From sequence record MZ726794.1: a stretch of DNA of 39,917 bases. One strand, given 5' to 3'. The position numbers and the translations under genes are program-made. Source of the stretch: Escherichia phage vB_EcoA_ASO2B. Every line of letters starts with the position of its first letter. The stretch's first letter is position 1. A model generated the notes under the pieces. That model saw only the letters and a program-made list of their open reading frames with translations, was not told where the DNA came from and did not search any database. Below, one piece after another: positions 104 through 39,755 of the stretch.

Positions 104-217
104 GTCCTACACCTACAGTCTCACTAACCTACAGTCTCACTAACCTACAGTCTCACTAACCTACAGTCTCAACCATAAGACACCAACACCTACAGTCATA
201 GACCTACAGTTACTAGA
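104..217. repeat. Left short-repeat array (SRL-like), ~7 tandem units with core CCTACAG
   Basis: Seen directly: acctacagtctcacta repeated at 111-126, 127-142, 143-158, degenerate copies to ~217. Analogous to T7 CCTAAAG arrays adjacent to the terminal repeat (concatemer processing/packaging region). Confidence 0.7.
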
Positions 218-1119: not shown

Positions 1120-1650
1120 ATGGAACGTAACGCTAACGCATACTATGAGCTGCTGGCTGCAACCGTTGAGCTGTTCAATGAGCGTATTCAGTGCGACGAA
1201 ATAGCTGAAGGCGATGACTACAGTGATGCGCTGCATGAGGTCGTAGACGGTAATGTTCCGCATTATTACCACGAGATTTACACGGTGATGGCTGCTGATG
1301 GTATTGACAATGAGTTCGAAGACTCTGGGCTGATGCCTGAGACCAAGGACGTAACGCGTATACTACAAGCTCGCATCTATGAGGCACTGTATAACGATGT
1401 GTCTAATAGCTCTGAGGTGGTCTGGTTTGAGGCTGAAGAGGAAGACGAAAAGGCTGAAGAGGAAGACGAAAAGGCTGAATATTGGGTAGTTGACACTAGA
1501 ACAGGCGAGATAATTGAGGCAGCTGTATCACTTTGCGAGGCTATTGCATGTGCAAAAGAACTCTATGAGGAAGGTTTTCACATGCAAGTCGAAGACATCA
1601 ACGATAACGTAGTGTTCGATCCTGAGGCTGCTGAGGAGGACTGCGAGTGA
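1120..1650 (+). CDS. ocr: Ocr-like DNA-mimic anti-restriction protein (T7 gene 0.3 homolog), 176 aa with extended acidic C-terminus
   Basis: Translation contains [43 protein letters not shown], closely matching the T7 Ocr core ([43 protein letters not shown] as I recall it); strong SD gagagga; highly acidic. Confidence 0.85.
   Translation: [176 protein letters not shown]
1432..1479 (+). repeat. Perfect 21-bp tandem duplication (gctgaagaggaagacgaaaag x2 plus partial third) inside ocr
   Basis: Seen directly; encodes [16 protein letters not shown] in the acidic tail of Ocr. Confidence 0.85.
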
Positions 1651-6225: not shown

Positions 6226-6248
6226 CCCTAAACTATCACTATAGGATT
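6226..6248 (+). promoter_or_regulatory. Phage RNAP promoter (ctaaactatcactatagga)
   Basis: Consensus core; position equivalent to T7 phi1.1. Confidence 0.75.
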
Positions 6249-6292
6249 AGACTCAAGGTCATGACTCAAAGTCGTGGCCTTCATGATTAACC
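6248..6292 (+). promoter_or_regulatory. RNase III-type processing site (R1.1-like)
   Basis: tagactcaaggtcatgactcaaagtcgtggccttcatgattaac; same motif at 13468 and 36784; resembles T7 R0.3 (actcaagg...gtgccctttatgat). Confidence 0.55.
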
Positions 6293-6321
6293 CTAACGTA
6301 AACTACTGGAGATTTAACCAC

Positions 6322-8972: not shown

Positions 8973-9127
8973 CTGAGGTTGAGAAGAAATACATCGTGGA
9001 GCTTGAGGGTCGCGTTCAGTCCTTCGAGGTTCCGGTGTACGCAAAGTCTCTTGAAGAGGCTACCCTGAAGTCCCAAGAGTATGAGGACGCTGGTTTTGTG
9101 GTCGGACGGATTCGTCCTGAGACCTAA
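8969..9127 (+). CDS. Gp2-like inhibitor of host RNA polymerase (52 aa)
   Basis: Not in ORF track (<60 aa). [52 protein letters not shown]; matches T7 Gp2 SFEVPIYA...AGFEVTRVRP including the Arg pair. Confidence 0.75.
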
Positions 9128-9144
9128 ACTATCACTTTAGGACA
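9123..9144 (+). promoter_or_regulatory. Phage RNAP promoter variant (ctaaactatcactTtagga), phi2.5-like
   Basis: Overlaps gp2 stop; TTTAGG variant shared with the 2906 promoter. Confidence 0.6.
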
Positions 9145-9185: not shown

Positions 9186-9887
9186 ATGGCTAAAGAGCAA
9201 CTGAAGACTTTCACCACTCCGGTATCTGGTATCGTTGAGCCTTACGCATGGCTGAACAAAGCAGACACCAAGTTTAACGAGCGTGGTGAGCATAAGGTTA
9301 ACCTGACATTCGACCTGAGCAACCCGAAGGTCCGTAAGATGATTGATGTCTTACAGAAGATTCACGACGATGCGTATGAGAAAGCACTCGCAGACCACGA
9401 GAAGAACCCGCCTCAGGTTCAGCGTGGCAAGAAGCCTATTGAACCACGAGAAGGCGACATGCCGTGGATTGAGAATGGTGACGGTACTGTTACCCTTAAG
9501 TTTAAATGCTTTGCGTCTTACCTTAAAGACGGCAAGTCAGAGCCTATCGTATTACGGTTCTACGACACTGATGCTAAGTTAATCCGTGACGTCCCGAATA
9601 TTGGCGCTGGCTCAAAGCTGAAGGTCAAGTTTAAAGTCCTGCCGTTCAAGTGGAACGCTGCGACTGGTGCAAGCGTTAAGCTCCAGCTTGAGTCCTGCCT
9701 TCTGGTAGAACTGAAGGAATGGAAAGGTGATGGTGCTGGTGGCGATGGTGGCTGGGGTGATGATGAAGACCTCGGTACTGGCTACAAAGCGTCAACCGAT
9801 GGTGACTTCGGTGACGATGACTTCGGTGACGATGGTTCCGAAGGTGGTGGTGACGACTCCAACTCTGGTGGCGATTACGACTTCTAA
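9186..9887 (+). CDS. Single-stranded DNA-binding protein (T7 gp2.5 homolog)
   Basis: Start MAKEQLK at 9186 with SD gaggag (track ORF starts 18 nt upstream inside the SD); motifs RGKKP, MPWIENGDGTVTLKFKC, SVKLQLES; C-terminal ...DYDF as in T7 gp2.5. Confidence 0.9.
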   Translation: MAKEQLKTFTTPVSGIVEPYAWLNKADTKFNERGEHKVNLTFDLSNPKVRKMIDVLQKIHDDAYEKALADHEKNPPQVQRGKKPIEPREGDMPWIENGDGTVTLKFKCFASYLKDGKSEPIVLRFYDTDAKLIRDVPNIGAGSKLKVKFKVLPFKWNAATGASVKLQLESCLLVELKEWKGDGAGGDGGWGDDEDLGTGYKASTDGDFGDDDFGDDGSEGGGDDSNSGGDYDF

Positions 9888-10339
9888 TGGCCCAATGGTC
9901 TGCAAAACGGGGGCACTCTGTGGGTGCCTACCGCTCTGGACTTGAAGCCAAGAACCAGCAGTGGCTGGAACAGAATGGCGTCAAAGCGGAGTACGAAAGC
10001 CATTATATCAACTATGTGATTCCGGCTTCCGACCACAAGTATACACCAGACTTTATCCTTCCTAACGGTATCATCGTGGAGACCAAAGGTATCTTCGATA
10101 GTGATGACCGTAAGAAGCACCTTCTGGTACGAGAACAGCACCCAGAGTTAGACATCCGGTTCGTGTTCTCAAGTTCCCGCTCCAAGCTATACAAAGGGTC
10201 TCCGACCACGTATGGCGCATGGTGTGAAAAGAATGGCTATAAGTATGCCGATAAGTTCATCCCGGTTGAGTGGCTGAAAGAGGCGACTGTACGTCTGCCT
10301 TCAGGTATCCTCATCCCCAAGAAGAAAGGAGTTAAGTGA
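9887..10339 (+). CDS. Endonuclease I, Holliday-junction resolvase (T7 gene 3 homolog)
   Basis: FRSGLE...YVIPASDHKYTPDFILPNGIIVETKG...DDRKKHLLVREQHPELDIRFVFSSSRSKLYKGSPTTYG closely matches T7 gp3. Confidence 0.92.
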   Translation: MAQWSAKRGHSVGAYRSGLEAKNQQWLEQNGVKAEYESHYINYVIPASDHKYTPDFILPNGIIVETKGIFDSDDRKKHLLVREQHPELDIRFVFSSSRSKLYKGSPTTYGAWCEKNGYKYADKFIPVEWLKEATVRLPSGILIPKKKGVK

Positions 10340-10809
10340 TGACTCAGAAATTTAGACTTAAGGTTAGTGACTACGGGTGGCCTAAAGGCACTATCGTTAC
10401 GAAATGTGCGAAAGACCCTGCACCATCAAACGGGCGTACTCTGGTGGAATCCACTGAGCGTGGCACATATAAACACGGAGCAGCAGGTCATAACACTCAG
10501 CCTGATGGTATGTGGGGGGCGTGGGTTGTAAACGAAAATCTTGAGGAAATCGTAGAGGATAAACCTCAGGTCCTACCAGCCTCAAGCGTCCCTCCTGTCA
10601 CCGTTAAACGTGAAGTCCTGACCATCAACAAGATTGGTGTAGGCCAGACGTTCATCGTCCACGGTAAGCCTGACGAAGTGTACGTGAAGATTAGCAACTC
10701 TCACGTATTCAACCACAAGCGGCTACAGATGCACACGACTGACGCACAGCGCTTCCAGTCACATCTGAATCTGGTGGTAGTAGAACTGGTGGTGTACAAT
10801 GGTAAGTAA
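10339..10809 (+). CDS. Hypothetical protein (156 aa) inserted between endonuclease I and lysozyme
   Basis: ATG 10339 overlaps gene 3 stop (TGATG), SD aaggag; no T7 counterpart at this position; no family recognised. Confidence 0.55.
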   Translation: MTQKFRLKVSDYGWPKGTIVTKCAKDPAPSNGRTLVESTERGTYKHGAAGHNTQPDGMWGAWVVNENLEEIVEDKPQVLPASSVPPVTVKREVLTINKIGVGQTFIVHGKPDEVYVKISNSHVFNHKRLQMHTTDAQRFQSHLNLVVVELVVYNGK

Positions 10810-11257
10810 GGTACAGTTCAACCCACGGTCCCGGACTGACGCTATCTTCGTGCACTGTTCGGCTACCAAGCCAGAGATGGACATCGGGGTAGAGACCATC
10901 CGTATGTGGCACAAGCAGCAAGGCTGGCTGGATGTAGGCTACCACTTTATCATCAAGCGTGATGGTACTGTGGAAGAGGGTCGCCCGGTAAATGTCGTAG
11001 GGTCACACGTTAAGGATTGGAACTCCCGGTCAGTAGGCGTCTGCCTTGTAGGTGGAATTGACGCTAAGGGTCAGTTTGAAGCTAACTTCACTCCAGCCCA
11101 GATGAACTCCCTGCGCAACAAGCTGGCTGACCTGAAGGTCCTGTATCCTCAGGCAGAAATCAAAGCACACCATGACGTAGCACCTAAGGCGTGTCCAAGT
11201 TTTGACTTGCAACGCTGGCTGTCTACCAATGAACTGGTCACTTCCGACCGTGGTTAA
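10799..11257 (+). CDS. Lysozyme / N-acetylmuramoyl-L-alanine amidase (T7 gene 3.5 homolog)
   Basis: TDAIFVHCSATKP...WLDVGYHFIIKRDGTVEEGR...HHDVAPKACPSFDL...NELVTSDRG matches T7 lysozyme almost throughout. Confidence 0.93.
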   Translation: MVSKVQFNPRSRTDAIFVHCSATKPEMDIGVETIRMWHKQQGWLDVGYHFIIKRDGTVEEGRPVNVVGSHVKDWNSRSVGVCLVGGIDAKGQFEANFTPAQMNSLRNKLADLKVLYPQAEIKAHHDVAPKACPSFDLQRWLSTNELVTSDRG

Positions 11258-11281: not shown

Positions 11282-11497
11282 ATGATTAAAATTATCGAAT
11301 TTCTTGGTCGTCTGGTGGTGCGTGGGTATCGTCGTGCTGCGGTACTGGAACGAAAGGTAGAAAAGAAGAATGCGGACGGTGCGGCTGATGCTGCTGCTCT
11401 GGCTGACAAGCTGACCATCGCGTCACTGGAAGCTGGAATGAAGGCTCGTCAGGCTGATACCAAAGCTGACCAGTTGGCTCAGTTCTTCAAAGCCTAA
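11282..11497 (+). CDS. Hypothetical small protein (71 aa), Ala/Lys-rich
   Basis: SD gggaga upstream; no family recognised. Confidence 0.45.
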   Translation: MIKIIEFLGRLVVRGYRRAAVLERKVEKKNADGAADAAALADKLTIASLEAGMKARQADTKADQLAQFFKA

Positions 11498-11514
11498 ACT
11501 ATCACCTTAGGGAT
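11492..11514 (+). promoter_or_regulatory. Phage RNAP promoter variant (ctaaactatcacCttaggga) upstream of gene 4
   Basis: Family member with a C substitution in the TATA element. Confidence 0.55.
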
Positions 11515-13300: not shown

Positions 13301-13464
13301 TGTTACGAAAACTTAAAGCTCGCTACCATCAGTTCATGTACAAATGGTGGAGCGATGAAGCAACCTGCCTGTCGAACATTCTTGGAGACCAGCGGTTCGA
13401 CTCTGAGGCATGGAAGAAAGCTAACCGGAAGTTTATGTATCACTTCTTGCGTACAGACTTCTAG
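13300..13464 (+). CDS. Hypothetical small protein (54 aa)
   Basis: ATG 13300 with SD ggaggg 11 nt upstream; internal start of track ORF 13282..13464. Confidence 0.4.
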
Positions 13465-13467
13465 GTC

Positions 13468-13512
13468 TAGACTCAAGGTCATTCACAGCGAGTGGCCTTT
13501 ATGATTAGACTA
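13468..13512 (+). promoter_or_regulatory. RNase III-type processing site (R4.7-like)
   Basis: tagactcaaggtcattcacagcgagtggcctttatgattagac; same motif as 6248 and 36784. Confidence 0.55.
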
Positions 13513-13527
13513 AACGGAGGATTAACC

Positions 13528-20121: not shown

Positions 20122-21006
20122 ATGTCTCAATCAGTTTATGCCGAGTTCGGCGTTAGCTCTAATGCAATCACTGGTTCCGTTGAGGACCTGAACGAACACC
20201 AGAAGTCTATGCTTGAACAGGACGTAGCTGTTCGTGATGGCGATGACGCTATTACCTTCAAGCAACTGGAAGCCGAAAACGAAGAGGCGACCGAAGAAGA
20301 CGAAAACGTCGAAGAGACTGAAGGTGAAGAAGACCACGAGTCAGATGACGAAGAGTCTGAGACAGATGGTGAGCAACCTGAGTTCGTAGAACTTGGTGAT
20401 GCACCTAAAGAGCTGACCGAAAGTGTCACCGCTCTGGATGAAAACGAAGCTGCATTTGACGACATGGTGTCTTCTGCTGTAGAAGCCGGCAAGGTCACTG
20501 CTGATGAAATTACCGCTATCAAGGCTGAATACGCCAAGGACGGTAAGCTGTCTGACGCATCCTACGCTAAGTTGCAGGAAGCAGGTTACACCAAGCGTTT
20601 CGTAGATTCGTTTGTCCGTGGTCAGGAAGCTCTGGCTGAACAGTATGCTGCTGGTGTGGTTCGCTACGCTGGCGGAGCTGAACAGTTTAATCGCATCCTG
20701 TCACACCTTGAGTCCAACGACCCATCAACTCGTGAAGCACTGGAAGCTGCTATCGTTCGTAAGGACATTGCGACTACCAAAGCTCTGCTGAATCTGGCTG
20801 GCAAGACTCTGGGTAAAGCTGTGGGTGTTAAACCTCAGCGTACCATCACCACTCAGGCTAAACCTGTGGTCGCACCTAAGGCTCCTCAGACCGAAGCATT
20901 CAGCTCCAAGGCTGACATGATTAAGGCCATGAGTGACCCGCGATACCTGCGTGACGCTAAATACACTATGGAAGTTCGCGCTAAGGTAGCTGCCTCAAGC
21001 CTGTAG
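20122..21006 (+). CDS. Capsid scaffolding protein (T7 gene 9 homolog)
   Basis: Start at 20122 (SD aaggag); acidic middle region; C-terminal IKAMSDPRY as in T7 gp9. Confidence 0.9.
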   Translation: MSQSVYAEFGVSSNAITGSVEDLNEHQKSMLEQDVAVRDGDDAITFKQLEAENEEATEEDENVEETEGEEDHESDDEESETDGEQPEFVELGDAPKELTESVTALDENEAAFDDMVSSAVEAGKVTADEITAIKAEYAKDGKLSDASYAKLQEAGYTKRFVDSFVRGQEALAEQYAAGVVRYAGGAEQFNRILSHLESNDPSTREALEAAIVRKDIATTKALLNLAGKTLGKAVGVKPQRTITTQAKPVVAPKAPQTEAFSSKADMIKAMSDPRYLRDAKYTMEVRAKVAASSL

Positions 21007-21007
21007 G

Positions 21008-21031
21008 ACTAAACTATCACTATAGGGAGAC
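21008..21031 (+). promoter_or_regulatory. Phage RNAP promoter (phi10-like), full consensus ctaaactatcactatagggaga
   Basis: Only copy with the full GGGAGA start; located upstream of the capsid gene as T7 phi10. Confidence 0.85.
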
Positions 21032-21132
21032 CAAGAGATAGACTCAAGGTTTCCCTATTACTTCAGTCCATACGGATTGGGCATACAGTAAGTAATAAAC
21101 TTTATCTTTCAATTGAATAGGAGAATTATCAT

Positions 21133-36521: not shown

Positions 36522-36781
36522 CGCAGATGGACTTAGAGAAGTTCCTCTTAATGCTAGATACTGAACGTGCTCGACTCATGCTGCAAGACCTGCGGGATGA
36601 CACTAAGCGTTCACCTCAGCTCTACAACGCCATTGAGAAGCTACTGGCTCGTCACAACTTTGTGTTAAGCAAGGTGTCTGTTGACGAGAAGACGCTGGCT
36701 GATATGGAGGCCCTGAACGCAGAGTACGATAAGGTGCTCTCCGCTACGGAAGATAATGACACCGGGTATGGTGTTCAATAA
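36518..36781 (+). CDS. Terminase small subunit (T7 gene 18 homolog)
   Basis: FLLMLDTERARLMLQDLRDDTKRSPQLYNAIEKLLARHNF resembles T7 gp18; size 87 vs 89 aa. Confidence 0.8.
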   Translation: MTQMDLEKFLLMLDTERARLMLQDLRDDTKRSPQLYNAIEKLLARHNFVLSKVSVDEKTLADMEALNAEYDKVLSATEDNDTGYGVQ

Positions 36782-36783
36782 GT

Positions 36784-36832
36784 GTTAGACTCAAGGTCAT
36801 TACTGTATGTAGTGGCCTTTATGGTTAACACT
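36784..36832 (+). promoter_or_regulatory. RNase III-type processing site (R18.5-like)
   Basis: tagactcaaggtcattactgtatgtagtggcctttatggttaac; third copy of the 6248/13468 motif. Confidence 0.55.
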
Positions 36833-36882
36833 AACTAGTGGAGGAGACTCTACGTGCAATCTGATAAACCGGGAGGGCAACT

Positions 36883-39679: not shown

Positions 39680-39755
39680 ATCCTACTTATTGGTCTATCC
39701 TAGTGTCGCCTGACCTACGGTCCTTGACCTACAGTGGCTGTGGCCTACAGTAGTG
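39680..39755. repeat. Right short-repeat array (SRR-like), CCTAC(A/G)G units
   Basis: cctacgg 39714-39720, cctacag 39728-39734 and 39744-39750, plus degenerate copies upstream; mirrors the left array at 104-217. Confidence 0.6.

What the first reader, a model, noticed from the sequence alone, without database searches (positions are those of the whole stretch)
10339..10809. Extra 156-aa gene between endonuclease I and lysozyme
T7, as I recall, has no gene between 3 and 3.5. Here a well-formed ORF with SD and start/stop coupling to both neighbours fills this slot. The protein is neither obviously membrane-bound nor a nuclease by motif, so its function is unknown; it is a candidate accessory or moron gene within the DNA-metabolism module.
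Basis: partly seen in the sequence, partly recalled or inferred. Interest (0 to 1): 0.5.

Follow-up and report, generated by a model that had tools for sequence, protein, structure and literature searches.

The report
Kayfunavirus gene 3.2: two-barrel modular protein
The "extra" gene is real but already catalogued: it is the uncharacterised gene 3.2 of K1F-like (Kayfunavirus) relatives of T7. It encodes a conserved C-terminal mini-barrel joined to a swappable, fast-evolving SH3-like N-terminal module that most likely binds a variable host factor.

Summary
The ORF at 10339-10809 (+) is confirmed. It is 156 aa, has an AAGGAG Shine-Dalgarno 7 nt upstream, its ATG shares one base with the gene 3 stop (TGATG), and its end overlaps the gene 3.5 start by 11 nt. 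T7 has nothing in this slot.

The gene is not new. The window is a Kayfunavirus genome and the ORF is K1F gp3.2 / CR44b 3.01 (PHROG 16385), labelled "hypothetical" in about 220 phage records.

It is a real coding gene: dN/dS is 0.11-0.25. It has no homologue in T7 and no Pfam, NCBIfam, PADLOC or PDB match. In 1.84 billion representative proteins only 17 clusters match.

Structure prediction gives two small beta-barrels joined by a Pro-rich linker.
- **C-module (residues 87-156):** carries the motif SNSHxFN...QMHTT...RF, is near-invariant, and always sits directly after endonuclease I.
- **N-module (residues 1-71):** SH3-like. It is a discrete cassette that can be absent, replaced by unrelated sequence, stacked in tandem, or hypervariable in its loops. 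In close pairs its pN/pS is 0.89, against 0.13-0.18 for the neighbours.

Best reading (inferred, about 0.4): a non-enzymatic binding adaptor in phage-host conflict. Function remains untested. Interest is modest.

The parts
9119..9143 (+). Phage-RNA-polymerase promoter-like repeat (consensus CTAAACTATCACTATAGGGA) that heads the operon 2.5-3-3.2-3.5-3.7.
   Evidence: It is one of 11 copies of a 25-nt repeat family. No copy lies inside gene 3.2. The next copy is at 11489-11513.
9887..10339 (+). Gene 3, endonuclease I (150 aa). Its stop TGA at 10337-10339 shares one base with the gene 3.2 ATG.
   Evidence: In all five family contexts read, the 3.2 homologue directly follows a Phage_endo_I gene.
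10326..10331 (+). Shine-Dalgarno AAGGAG, 7 nt upstream of the ATG.
   Evidence: Read directly from the sequence.
10339..10809 (+). Gene 3.2 CDS, 156 aa plus TAA stop.
   Evidence: PHROG 16385 matches over the full length at 1.6e-95. It is 77% identical to K1F gp3.2. The exact sequence is UAW58406.1, a hypothetical protein of Escherichia phage vB_EcoA_ASO2B. dN/dS is well below 1.
10339..10551 (+). N-module (residues 1-71): a predicted SH3-like five-stranded barrel that behaves as a hypervariable, exchangeable cassette.
10552..10596 (+). Pro-rich linker (residues 72-86, VEDKPQVLPASSVPPV). It is conserved in most N-bearing forms read, whatever their N type (diverged or absent in CR8-type, P0130, P0131 and the divergent clade), and it is where nucleotide similarity resumes.
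   Evidence: It is disordered in the model, with pLDDT below 50 at residues 75-85.
10597..10806 (+). C-module (residues 87-156): a conserved small beta-barrel, basic (pI 9.8). This is the part that defines the family.
10681..10755 (+). Core motif Y115-F139: Y[VLM][KV][IM]SNSHVFN[HL]xxxQMHTTxxxRF. Y, S, N, S, H, F, N and R are invariant even in homologues about 30% identical.
   Evidence: Alignments A3 and A4.
10799..11257 (+). Gene 3.5, amidase/lysozyme (152 aa). Its ATG lies 11 nt inside gene 3.2 and only a weak GGTGG precedes it, which suggests translational coupling.

Best explanation
This is gene 3.2 of a Kayfunavirus (a K1F-like relative of T7). It is a real, translated middle gene, transcribed with genes 2.5, 3, 3.5 and 3.7 from the phage promoter at 9119 and translationally coupled to endonuclease I upstream and lysozyme downstream.

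It encodes a soluble, cytoplasmic, probably non-enzymatic protein built of two small beta-barrels on a Pro-rich tether.
- The basic C-terminal barrel carries the motif SNSHxFN...QMHTT...RF. It is the constant, family-defining part. I infer that it binds a conserved partner, either host or phage.
- The N-terminal SH3-like barrel is an optional, exchangeable and fast-evolving add-on. Its variable residues lie in the loops between strands. I infer that it is a specificity module aimed at a strain-variable host component, such as an immunity protein, or one that is varied to escape recognition by such a component.

Shown here: gene reality, family identity, the two-module architecture (predicted), the cassette boundaries, the contrast in selection between the halves, and the conserved position. 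Inferred: that both barrels act by binding, that the target is host-encoded and conflict-related, and what the C-module's partner is.
For: Real and expressed. It has a Shine-Dalgarno site and start/stop overlaps. dN/dS is 0.11 for the C-half and 0.25 for the N-half, similar to neighbouring genes at 0.12-0.15. It lies within the operon between the promoters at 9119 and 11489.

Family. PHROG 16385 matches at 1.6e-95. It corresponds to K1F gp3.2 and CR44b 3.01.

Modularity.
- C-only proteins of 74-75 aa make up about 45% of sampled records.
- The 201 proteins retrieved split into nine BLAST-unlinked N-terminal sequence groups (the largest merges types A and B through tandem forms). Profile-profile probability is below 7% between the five groups compared.
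- Tandem N modules occur in P0121 and P0088, and in-frame deletion variants in P0124 and P0185.

Sharp cassette. Nucleotide identity is 93-100% in gene 3, falls at 10339 to 23-80%, and recovers at about 10550-10600.

Fast evolution confined to the N-module. Entropy is 1.09 bits against 0.20. Up to 17-18 residue types occur at positions 11, 28, 30, 31, 43 and 64, while 19 scaffold residues are invariant. Pooled pN/pS in close pairs is 0.89, against 0.13 for the C-half, 0.17 for gene 3 and 0.18 for gene 3.5. Non-strand positions give 0.52 and strands 0.25.

Background (established knowledge, not tested here). Small beta-barrels such as SH3, Tudor, KOW, FeoA and the DtxR C-domain act by binding peptides, proteins or nucleic acids. 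Hypervariable loops on a fixed scaffold, together with cassette exchange, are typical of proteins in host-virus conflict.
Against: - There are no functional data anywhere.
- Whole-domain pN/pS is about 0.9, not above 1. The above-1 values at the hypervariable sites come from sites chosen for their variability. The pairs are few (13 genomes), not independent, and recombination is evident, so relaxed constraint on loops is not excluded.
- The N-module is missing in nearly half the phages, so it is dispensable.
- Type-A modules occur in phages of Escherichia, Citrobacter, Hafnia, Kosakonia and Pectobacterium. A strictly strain-specific target would not predict that spread.
- The one contextual constant is adjacency to endonuclease I, which points to DNA metabolism rather than counter-defence.
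Confidence: 0.4

Rival explanations
1. It is a DNA-metabolism accessory factor. The basic C-barrel binds DNA (branched or end structures), or binds and regulates endonuclease I, whose gene it always follows. The N-module is a secondary add-on.
For: In every lineage read, including members about 30% identical, the gene starts 1-4 nt inside the end of a Phage_endo_I gene. In two of those lineages, 2-3 extra genes separate it from the amidase. The C-module has pI 9.8 with invariant R, H, N, S, T and aromatic residues. Many SH3-like barrels (Sso7d, KOW, Tudor, integrase C-domain) bind nucleic acids; that is established knowledge, not tested here. The gene sits between genes 2.5/3 and gene 4 in the replication module.
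Against: T7 endonuclease I works without such a partner, because T7 has no homologue. T7-like genomes are collinear, so a conserved position is weak evidence of functional linkage. The explanation gives no reason for hypervariable, swappable N modules. No nucleic-acid-binding family is detected by sequence.
Confidence: 0.2
2. It has a lysis-related or lysozyme-related role: a peptidoglycan-binding or degenerate NlpC/P60-like partner of the amidase, or mainly a translational-coupling device that sets the lysozyme dose.
Against: No Cys is conserved. C-only forms have none at all, so there is no catalytic triad. There is no Pfam hit and no signal peptide or membrane segment. In L023 and L033 two or three genes separate it from the amidase. 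T7 lysozyme needs no such partner. A pure spacer would not keep a 70-residue domain at dN/dS 0.11.
Confidence: 0.08
3. It is a non-functional or decaying ORF, or one with no role of its own that persists only because it lies between essential genes.
For: The N-half is lost, frameshifted (P0123) or internally deleted (P0124, P0185) in some genomes. No function is known.
Against: The C-half is kept in about 220 genomes at dN/dS 0.11, with synonymous divergence (dS 0.39) as high as in neighbouring genes. The constraint therefore acts on the protein, not on the DNA. The invariant motif extends to homologues 30% identical.
Confidence: 0.03
4. It is a known T7 gene that has moved here.
For: None found.
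Against: HMMs of the whole family, the N-module and the C-module, run against all 817 six-frame ORFs of T7, give a best E of 0.5. Exhaustive HMMER over 1.84 billion representatives finds only 17 clusters. The five contexts read are all at this same position, directly after endonuclease I, in T7-like modules. There is no paralogue in the window.
Confidence: 0.01

Closest known systems
K1F gp3.2 / CR44b gp3.01 / EcoDS1 gp3.2 / Dev2 gp3.2 (PHROG 16385 full length; PHROG 15211 C-module only)
   Same: Same family and same slot. Identity to K1F over the full length is 77%. The profile match is 1.6e-95 and end to end. The start/stop overlaps with genes 3 and 3.5 are the same.
   Different: Nothing essential differs; this is one more allele of the type-A N cassette. 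All members are annotated hypothetical, so the family gives a name but no function.
SH3-like small beta-barrels (eukaryotic SH3, FeoA, DtxR/IdeR C-terminal domain, Tudor, KOW/EF-P domain I)
   Different: There is no sequence similarity to any of these families. The canonical SH3 ligand-binding residues were not identified, and binding is untested. This is a resemblance of fold and likely mode of action, not membership.
Small class II host-interaction proteins of T7 (gp4.5, gp5.5, gp5.7, gp5.9)
   Same: They share the genomic module, size class and middle expression. They are non-essential accessory proteins that bind host proteins (from established T7 literature, not tested here).
   Different: No homology. 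K1F-type genomes lack T7 genes 0.7, 4.5 and 5.9. That makes functional substitution conceivable, but it was not tested.
Modular phage proteins with a conserved anchor and an exchangeable specificity domain (for example T7-group tail fibre/tailspike gp17)
   Same: The evolutionary pattern is the same: one constant module, one cassette swapped by recombination at sharp boundaries, and many unrelated cassette types.
   Different: Gene 3.2 is a middle gene in the DNA-metabolism operon and is presumably intracellular rather than a virion protein. The order is reversed, with the variable module at the N terminus.

Membership tests
K1F gp3.2 family (PHROG 16385 / 15211) | End-to-end profile match | tested here: met
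   PHROG 16385 matches at 1.6e-95, residues 1-156 against profile positions 1-157 of 157. PHROG 15211 matches at 2.1e-40 on residues 87-156.
K1F gp3.2 family (PHROG 16385 / 15211) | C-terminal motif Y..SNSHxFN....QMHTT...RF | tested here: met
   The motif is present at residues 115-139 and invariant across alignments A3 and A4.
K1F gp3.2 family (PHROG 16385 / 15211) | Position directly after endonuclease I with overlapping stop and start | tested here: met
   The window has TGATG. The same holds in K1F, Vec13, TM1, CR8 and Dev2 and in L023, L032, L033 and L034.
SH3-like small beta-barrel fold | N-module: five-stranded barrel superposable on SH3 domains | tested here: met
SH3-like small beta-barrel fold | C-module: the same fold | tested here: inconclusive
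Sequence families of SH3 domains (Pfam SH3_1, SH3b and others) | Profile match above threshold | tested here: not met
   No Pfam family matches at E up to 1. No PDB sequence matches at E up to 10.
Relocated T7 gene | Detectable homology to a T7 ORF | tested here: not met
   The best E is 0.5 against T7 six-frame ORFs. The exhaustive search returned 17 clusters, none of them linked to a T7 gene.
Moron (independently transcribed insert) | Own promoter and/or terminator | tested here: not met
   There is no phage-promoter repeat between 9143 and 11489. No sigma-70-like site on the + strand and no terminator-like site lies within or flanking the gene.
Moron (independently transcribed insert) | Sporadic distribution and atypical composition | tested here: inconclusive
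   The C-module is in 220 of 236 records sharing the region, so it is not sporadic. The N cassette is sporadic. G+C is 0.484-0.488 against 0.497 for the genome, but GC3 of the N cassette is 0.42 against 0.54-0.65 in neighbouring genes.
NlpC/P60 (papain-like) peptidase | Conserved Cys-His-His/Asn catalytic triad | tested here: not met
HNH / beta-beta-alpha-Me nuclease | Beta-beta-alpha metal finger with H-N-H residues | tested here: not met
Known defence-system protein families (PADLOC) | Profile match | tested here: not met
   There is no hit for the window protein. One homologue gives a chance-level hit (DruB, E 0.0032, 14 bits). No library of anti-defence proteins was available, so that kind of membership is untested.

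The most novel reading that the evidence does not exclude
Gene 3.2 defines a new class of phage counter-defence or host-takeover adaptor. A genus-wide C-terminal barrel delivers a constant activity or anchor. Recombination shuffles, stacks and removes a library of unrelated, loop-hypervariable SH3-like modules, each of which retargets the protein to a different strain-variable host immunity component, or evades being sensed by one. This would be an intracellular counterpart of tail-fibre cassette exchange.
Probability: 0.3. Interest if true: 0.6.

Novelty: already known. Interest (0 to 1): 0.3.

Why it matters
As an ORF it is ordinary. It has been annotated as gp3.2 in K1F and as "hypothetical protein" in every record read here, out of about 220 that carry it.

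What this analysis adds is three things: a predicted two-barrel architecture, the sharp split into a constant C-module and an exchangeable, fast-evolving N cassette, and a strictly conserved position after endonuclease I.

Kayfunaviruses such as K1F, LM33_P1 and Mt1B1_P3 are, from my own knowledge, used as therapy and gut-ecology models. If the N cassette really tracks host factors, it would be an intracellular host-range determinant that receptor-based predictions overlook. It would also be a compact natural scaffold for evolving binders. If it does not, the gene remains one more conserved unknown of the T7 group.

Tried and rejected
- **Sequence libraries.** Pfam, NCBIfam, PADLOC and PDB sequence searches on the window protein and eight divergent homologues gave nothing above noise.
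- **Structure search in viral models (BFVD).** Only family members and unnamed small phage proteins were returned.
- **Relocated T7 gene.** Rejected.
- **Paralogue elsewhere in the genome.** None.
- **Cys-less NlpC/P60 remnant.** Not excluded as an origin, but there is no catalytic Cys, so it is not an active peptidase.
- **Internal duplication (N and C barrels homologous), or all N types being divergent homologues.** hhalign probabilities are all below 7%.
- **Nucleotide-level constraint explaining C-module conservation (embedded promoter or RNA).** Rejected. dS there is 0.39, as high as in the flanking genes, and no promoter repeat is present.
- **RNA structure at the 5' end of the gene.** Prompted by a 24-nt similarity to 216-239 and 21027-21050. 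The fold z-score is +0.76, so there is none.
- **In-frame internal start for a C-only isoform.** No ATG or GTG lies in frame around codons 75-90.
- **Diversity-generating retroelement.** No second copy of the cassette appears among the 20 largest of at least 60 repeat families in the genome. No reverse transcriptase is annotated in the related K1F genome.
- **Phyletic complementarity with the T7 genes missing from K1F (0.7, 4.5, 5.9).** Noted, but it amounts to a single evolutionary event and has no statistical power.
- **Literature.** Five searches found only table listings of the gene as hypothetical.

Full report
**1. The observation**

The + strand ORF at 10339-10809 encodes 156 aa. The mechanical ORF list starts one codon earlier, at GTG 10336, but all homologues begin MT/MS at the ATG. 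AAGGAG lies at 10326-10331, 7 nt upstream of the ATG. The TGA of the preceding gene (10337-10339) shares its last base with the ATG (TGATG). The next gene's ATG, at 10799, lies 11 nt inside the ORF behind only a weak GGTGG. The neighbours are endonuclease I (9887-10339) and the amidase/lysozyme (10799-11257).

**2. What the window is, and what the gene is called**

The region 9887-11257 is 99.6% identical to Escherichia phage Mt1B1_P3. It is 89-96% identical to many members of the genus Kayfunavirus, including K1F. The exact protein is on record as UAW58406.1, "hypothetical protein ASO2B_020" of Escherichia phage vB_EcoA_ASO2B, on a contig of 39,917 bp, which is the length of the window. In K1F the same ORF is annotated as gene 3.2 (gp3.2), and in Citrobacter phage CR44b as 3.01. 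PHROG 16385 matches end to end (1.6e-95), and PHROG 15211 matches residues 87-156 only (2.1e-40). Both PHROGs are of unknown function. Literature searches found the gene only in annotation tables. The gene is therefore extra relative to T7, but it is a catalogued and uncharacterised feature of K1F-like phages.

**3. It is a real protein-coding gene inside the middle operon**

I aligned thirteen genomes carrying the same (type-A) form by codon. The Nei-Gojobori results were as follows.

| Region | dN/dS | dS |
|---|---|---|
| Gene 3 | 0.146 | 0.31 |
| 3.2, residues 1-71 | 0.25 | 0.97 |
| 3.2, linker | 0.21 | 0.70 |
| 3.2, residues 87-152 | 0.11 | 0.39 |
| Gene 3.5 | 0.117 | 0.24 |

Both halves are under purifying selection on the protein. 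The synonymous rate in the conserved C-half is as high as in the flanking genes, so its conservation is not due to an embedded DNA or RNA signal.

Eleven copies of a phage-promoter-like repeat (CTAAACTATCACTATAGGGA) are spread over the genome. Those at 9119 and 11489 bracket genes 2.5, 3, 3.2, 3.5 and 3.7, and none lies within gene 3.2. A sigma-70 and terminator scan found nothing relevant. The 5' end of the gene has no unusual RNA structure, with z = +0.76. G+C (0.484-0.488) matches the genome (0.497). GC3 of the N-half is lower, at 0.42 against 0.54-0.65 in neighbouring genes.

**4. Distribution**

- tblastn against 50,697 phage records found 220 records with the protein, among the 236 that share the DNA region.
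- In an evenly spaced sample of those 220, about 25% match over the full length.
- About 28% match only from roughly residue 50-75 onward.
- About 45% match only residues 87-156. Those checked in this last class are 74-75 aa proteins consisting of the C-half alone (Dev2, SH4, and a 74-member cluster).
- An exhaustive HMMER search of 1.84 billion representative proteins found only 17 clusters. A word-indexed profile search with the C-half added a divergent clade about 30-47% identical.
- Every context read is a T7-like DNA-metabolism module, and most listed homologues with long contigs are on contigs of about 39-40 kb.
- T7 has no homologue: the best E is 0.5 against all its six-frame ORFs. The window has no paralogue.
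- There is no Pfam, NCBIfam, PADLOC or PDB sequence hit.

**5. Anatomy**

Alignments show two very different halves.

The C-half (residues 87-156) is about 95% conserved within the genus. It keeps the motif Y-x-x-x-SNSH-x-FN-x4-QMHTT-x3-RF even in members about 30% identical. Y, S, N, S, H, F, N and R are invariant.

A Pro-rich linker (PQVLPASSVPPVTV) precedes it in most N-bearing forms read, whatever their N-terminal type. It is diverged or absent in CR8-type proteins, P0130, P0131 and the divergent clade.

The N-half differs between phages.
- Among the 201 proteins retrieved, the N-terminal parts fall into nine BLAST-unlinked sequence groups; the largest merges types A and B through the tandem forms.
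- Profile-profile probabilities between the five groups compared, and between each of them and the C-half, are below 7%.
- Some proteins carry two different N modules in tandem (P0121, P0088).
- Some have in-frame deletions of the N module (P0124, P0185).

The C-half is basic (pI 9.8) and the N-half is near neutral (pI 7.9). GRAVY is -0.44.

**6. The N-half is a discrete, fast-evolving cassette**

Nucleotide identity between the window and relatives is 93-100% through gene 3. It drops exactly at 10339, to 37-80% for distant type-A alleles, to 23-50% for type B, and to a gap in C-only phages. It recovers at about 10550-10600 and stays high through the C-half and gene 3.5. For example, phage 101136BS1 has 99.3% identical gp3 and gp3.5 but only 72% identical gp3.2.

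Over 119 full-length homologues, mean column entropy is 1.09 bits in the N-half against 0.20 in the C-half. Positions 11, 28, 30, 31, 43 and 64 carry 17-18 different residues. A scaffold stays invariant in the 22-sequence alignment: G13, W14, G17, T18, V20, T21, C23, D26, P27, L35, V36, G42, G47, G50, Q54, P55, G57, W59 and G60.

The variable positions (8-12, 16, 24, 28-33, 39, 43, 48-51, 64-67) fall mostly between the predicted strands. pN/pS is 0.52 for non-strand positions and 0.25 for strand positions. By analogy with canonical SH3 topology, three of the four clusters correspond to the RT loop, the n-Src loop and the 3-10 region that form the ligand face. That correspondence is an inference, not a test.

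In the seven closest allele pairs, pooled pN/pS is 0.89 for the N-half. It is 0.13 for the C-half, 0.17 for gene 3 and 0.18 for gene 3.5. Given the invariant scaffold, this implies omega near or above 1 at loop sites.

Four caveats apply. There are few genomes, the pairs are not independent, recombination is evident, and sites chosen by variability bias any site-level ratio.

The high dS of the N-half overall (0.97, against 0.24-0.39 around it) shows that the alleles are much older than their flanks. That is the signature of cassette exchange.

**7. Position**

In Kayfunavirus the gene sits between genes 3 and 3.5 and overlaps both. In four more divergent contexts (L023, L032, L033, L034) it again starts 4 nt inside the end of a Phage_endo_I gene. 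In L023 and L033, three and two extra small genes separate it from the amidase. The constant neighbour is therefore endonuclease I, not lysozyme. Because T7-like genomes are collinear, this is only modest evidence of a functional link.

**8. How it most likely works**

Shown: a soluble middle-gene product with a constant C-terminal barrel and an optional, exchangeable, loop-variable SH3-like N-terminal barrel on a flexible Pro-rich tether, with no enzyme signature.

Inferred: both barrels act by binding.

The pattern is a constant module plus a library of unrelated, stackable, fast-evolving modules exchanged at sharp boundaries. It is what is seen in proteins engaged in host-virus conflict, and it resembles tail-fibre cassette exchange moved to an intracellular protein.

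I therefore favour, at about 0.4, a binding adaptor or inhibitor. Its C-module would engage a conserved partner. Its N-module would add specificity for a variable host component, or be varied to avoid recognition by one.

The rivals are:
- a DNA-metabolism cofactor linked to endonuclease I (0.2). It is supported by the position and the basic C-module, but it does not explain the N-module behaviour, and T7 does without it;
- a lysozyme or cell-wall-linked role, or a translational-coupling role (0.08). It is weakened by the intervening genes in L023 and L033 and by the lack of a catalytic Cys;
- a functionless ORF (0.03). It is contradicted by dN/dS of 0.11 over about 220 genomes;
- a relocated T7 gene (0.01), which is refuted.

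The remaining probability is for functions not considered here.

**9. Comparison and novelty**

Membership in the K1F gp3.2 family is met on all three defining features: the profile match, the motif and the position. Membership of any functionally defined family is not met. Similarity to SH3-like barrels is at the level of predicted fold only.

The gene itself is already known as an annotated ORF. The architecture, the cassette behaviour and the contrast in selection are, as far as the searched literature shows, undescribed. They are descriptive findings and do not establish a mechanism.

Interest is modest (0.3). A T7 specialist would not be surprised by an unknown small class II gene, but the modular hypervariable design makes a concrete, testable candidate for an intracellular host-range or counter-defence factor.

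Noticed in passing
window 2902, 6223, 7927, 9119, 11489, 17163, 20005, 21004, 25647, 32923, 39183 (each about 25 nt, + strand): Eleven copies of a repeat with consensus CTAAACTATCACTATAGGGA, all on the + strand and mostly in intergenic positions. They look like the promoter set of this phage's own RNA polymerase.
   Followed up: partly
window 6240-6300, 13455-13515, 36778-36838: Three copies of a conserved element of about 50 nt (TTAGACTCAAGGTCAT...GTGGCCTT.ATG.TTA). Each folds into a stable hairpin with an internal loop, with z-scores of -3.5, -3.3 and -4.4 against shuffles. These are candidate RNase III processing sites like those of T7; that comparison is from memory.
   Followed up: partly
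window 111-171 and 39728-39753: A perfect 16-nt tandem repeat (CCTACAGTCTCACTAA, more than three copies) lies near the left end, with related copies near the right end. This is probably part of the terminal or concatemer-junction region of a T7-like genome.
   Followed up: no
window 1414-1500 and 20269-20343: 21-nt and 30-nt tandem repeats encode acidic Glu/Asp-rich stretches (GAAGAGGAAGACGAAAAGGCTGAA). One is in an early gene near the left end and one is at about 20.3 kb.
   Followed up: no
Homologues P0121 and P0088 (226-227 aa); P0124 and P0185 (103 aa); P0123 (157 aa): Natural variants of gene 3.2. P0121 and P0088 carry two different N modules in tandem. P0124 and P0185 have an in-frame deletion running from the conserved DP after the scaffold Cys to the ASSVPP of the linker. 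P0123 has a frameshift through the N module that re-enters frame before the C-module; this could be a sequencing error.
   Followed up: partly
L023 4434-5138 and L033 3432-3990: In the divergent clade, two or three additional small ORFs with no Pfam match (116, 75 and 49 aa; 112 and 79 aa) sit between the 3.2 homologue and the amidase. This is a second insertion hot spot in the same slot.
   Followed up: no
MT350292.1 (hit H13): A record named "Enterococcus phage EFA-1", with host given as Enterococcus faecalis, is 92.9% identical over genes 3, 3.2 and 3.5 to this enterobacterial Kayfunavirus. The host label looks doubtful.
   Followed up: no
L003 118-564 (phage TM1) and hit H46 (phage PH1061): Some relatives carry an HNH homing-endonuclease gene immediately upstream of, or next to, gene 3. 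This may promote the local recombination that exchanges the 3.2 cassette.
   Followed up: no
L035 (K1F whole-genome annotation) compared with L031 (T7): K1F-type genomes have no annotated counterparts of T7 genes 0.7, 2.8, 3.8, 4.5, 4.7, 5.9 and 7.7. The missing RecBCD inhibitor (5.9) and Lon-binding 4.5 raise the question of which Kayfunavirus genes cover those functions.
   Followed up: no
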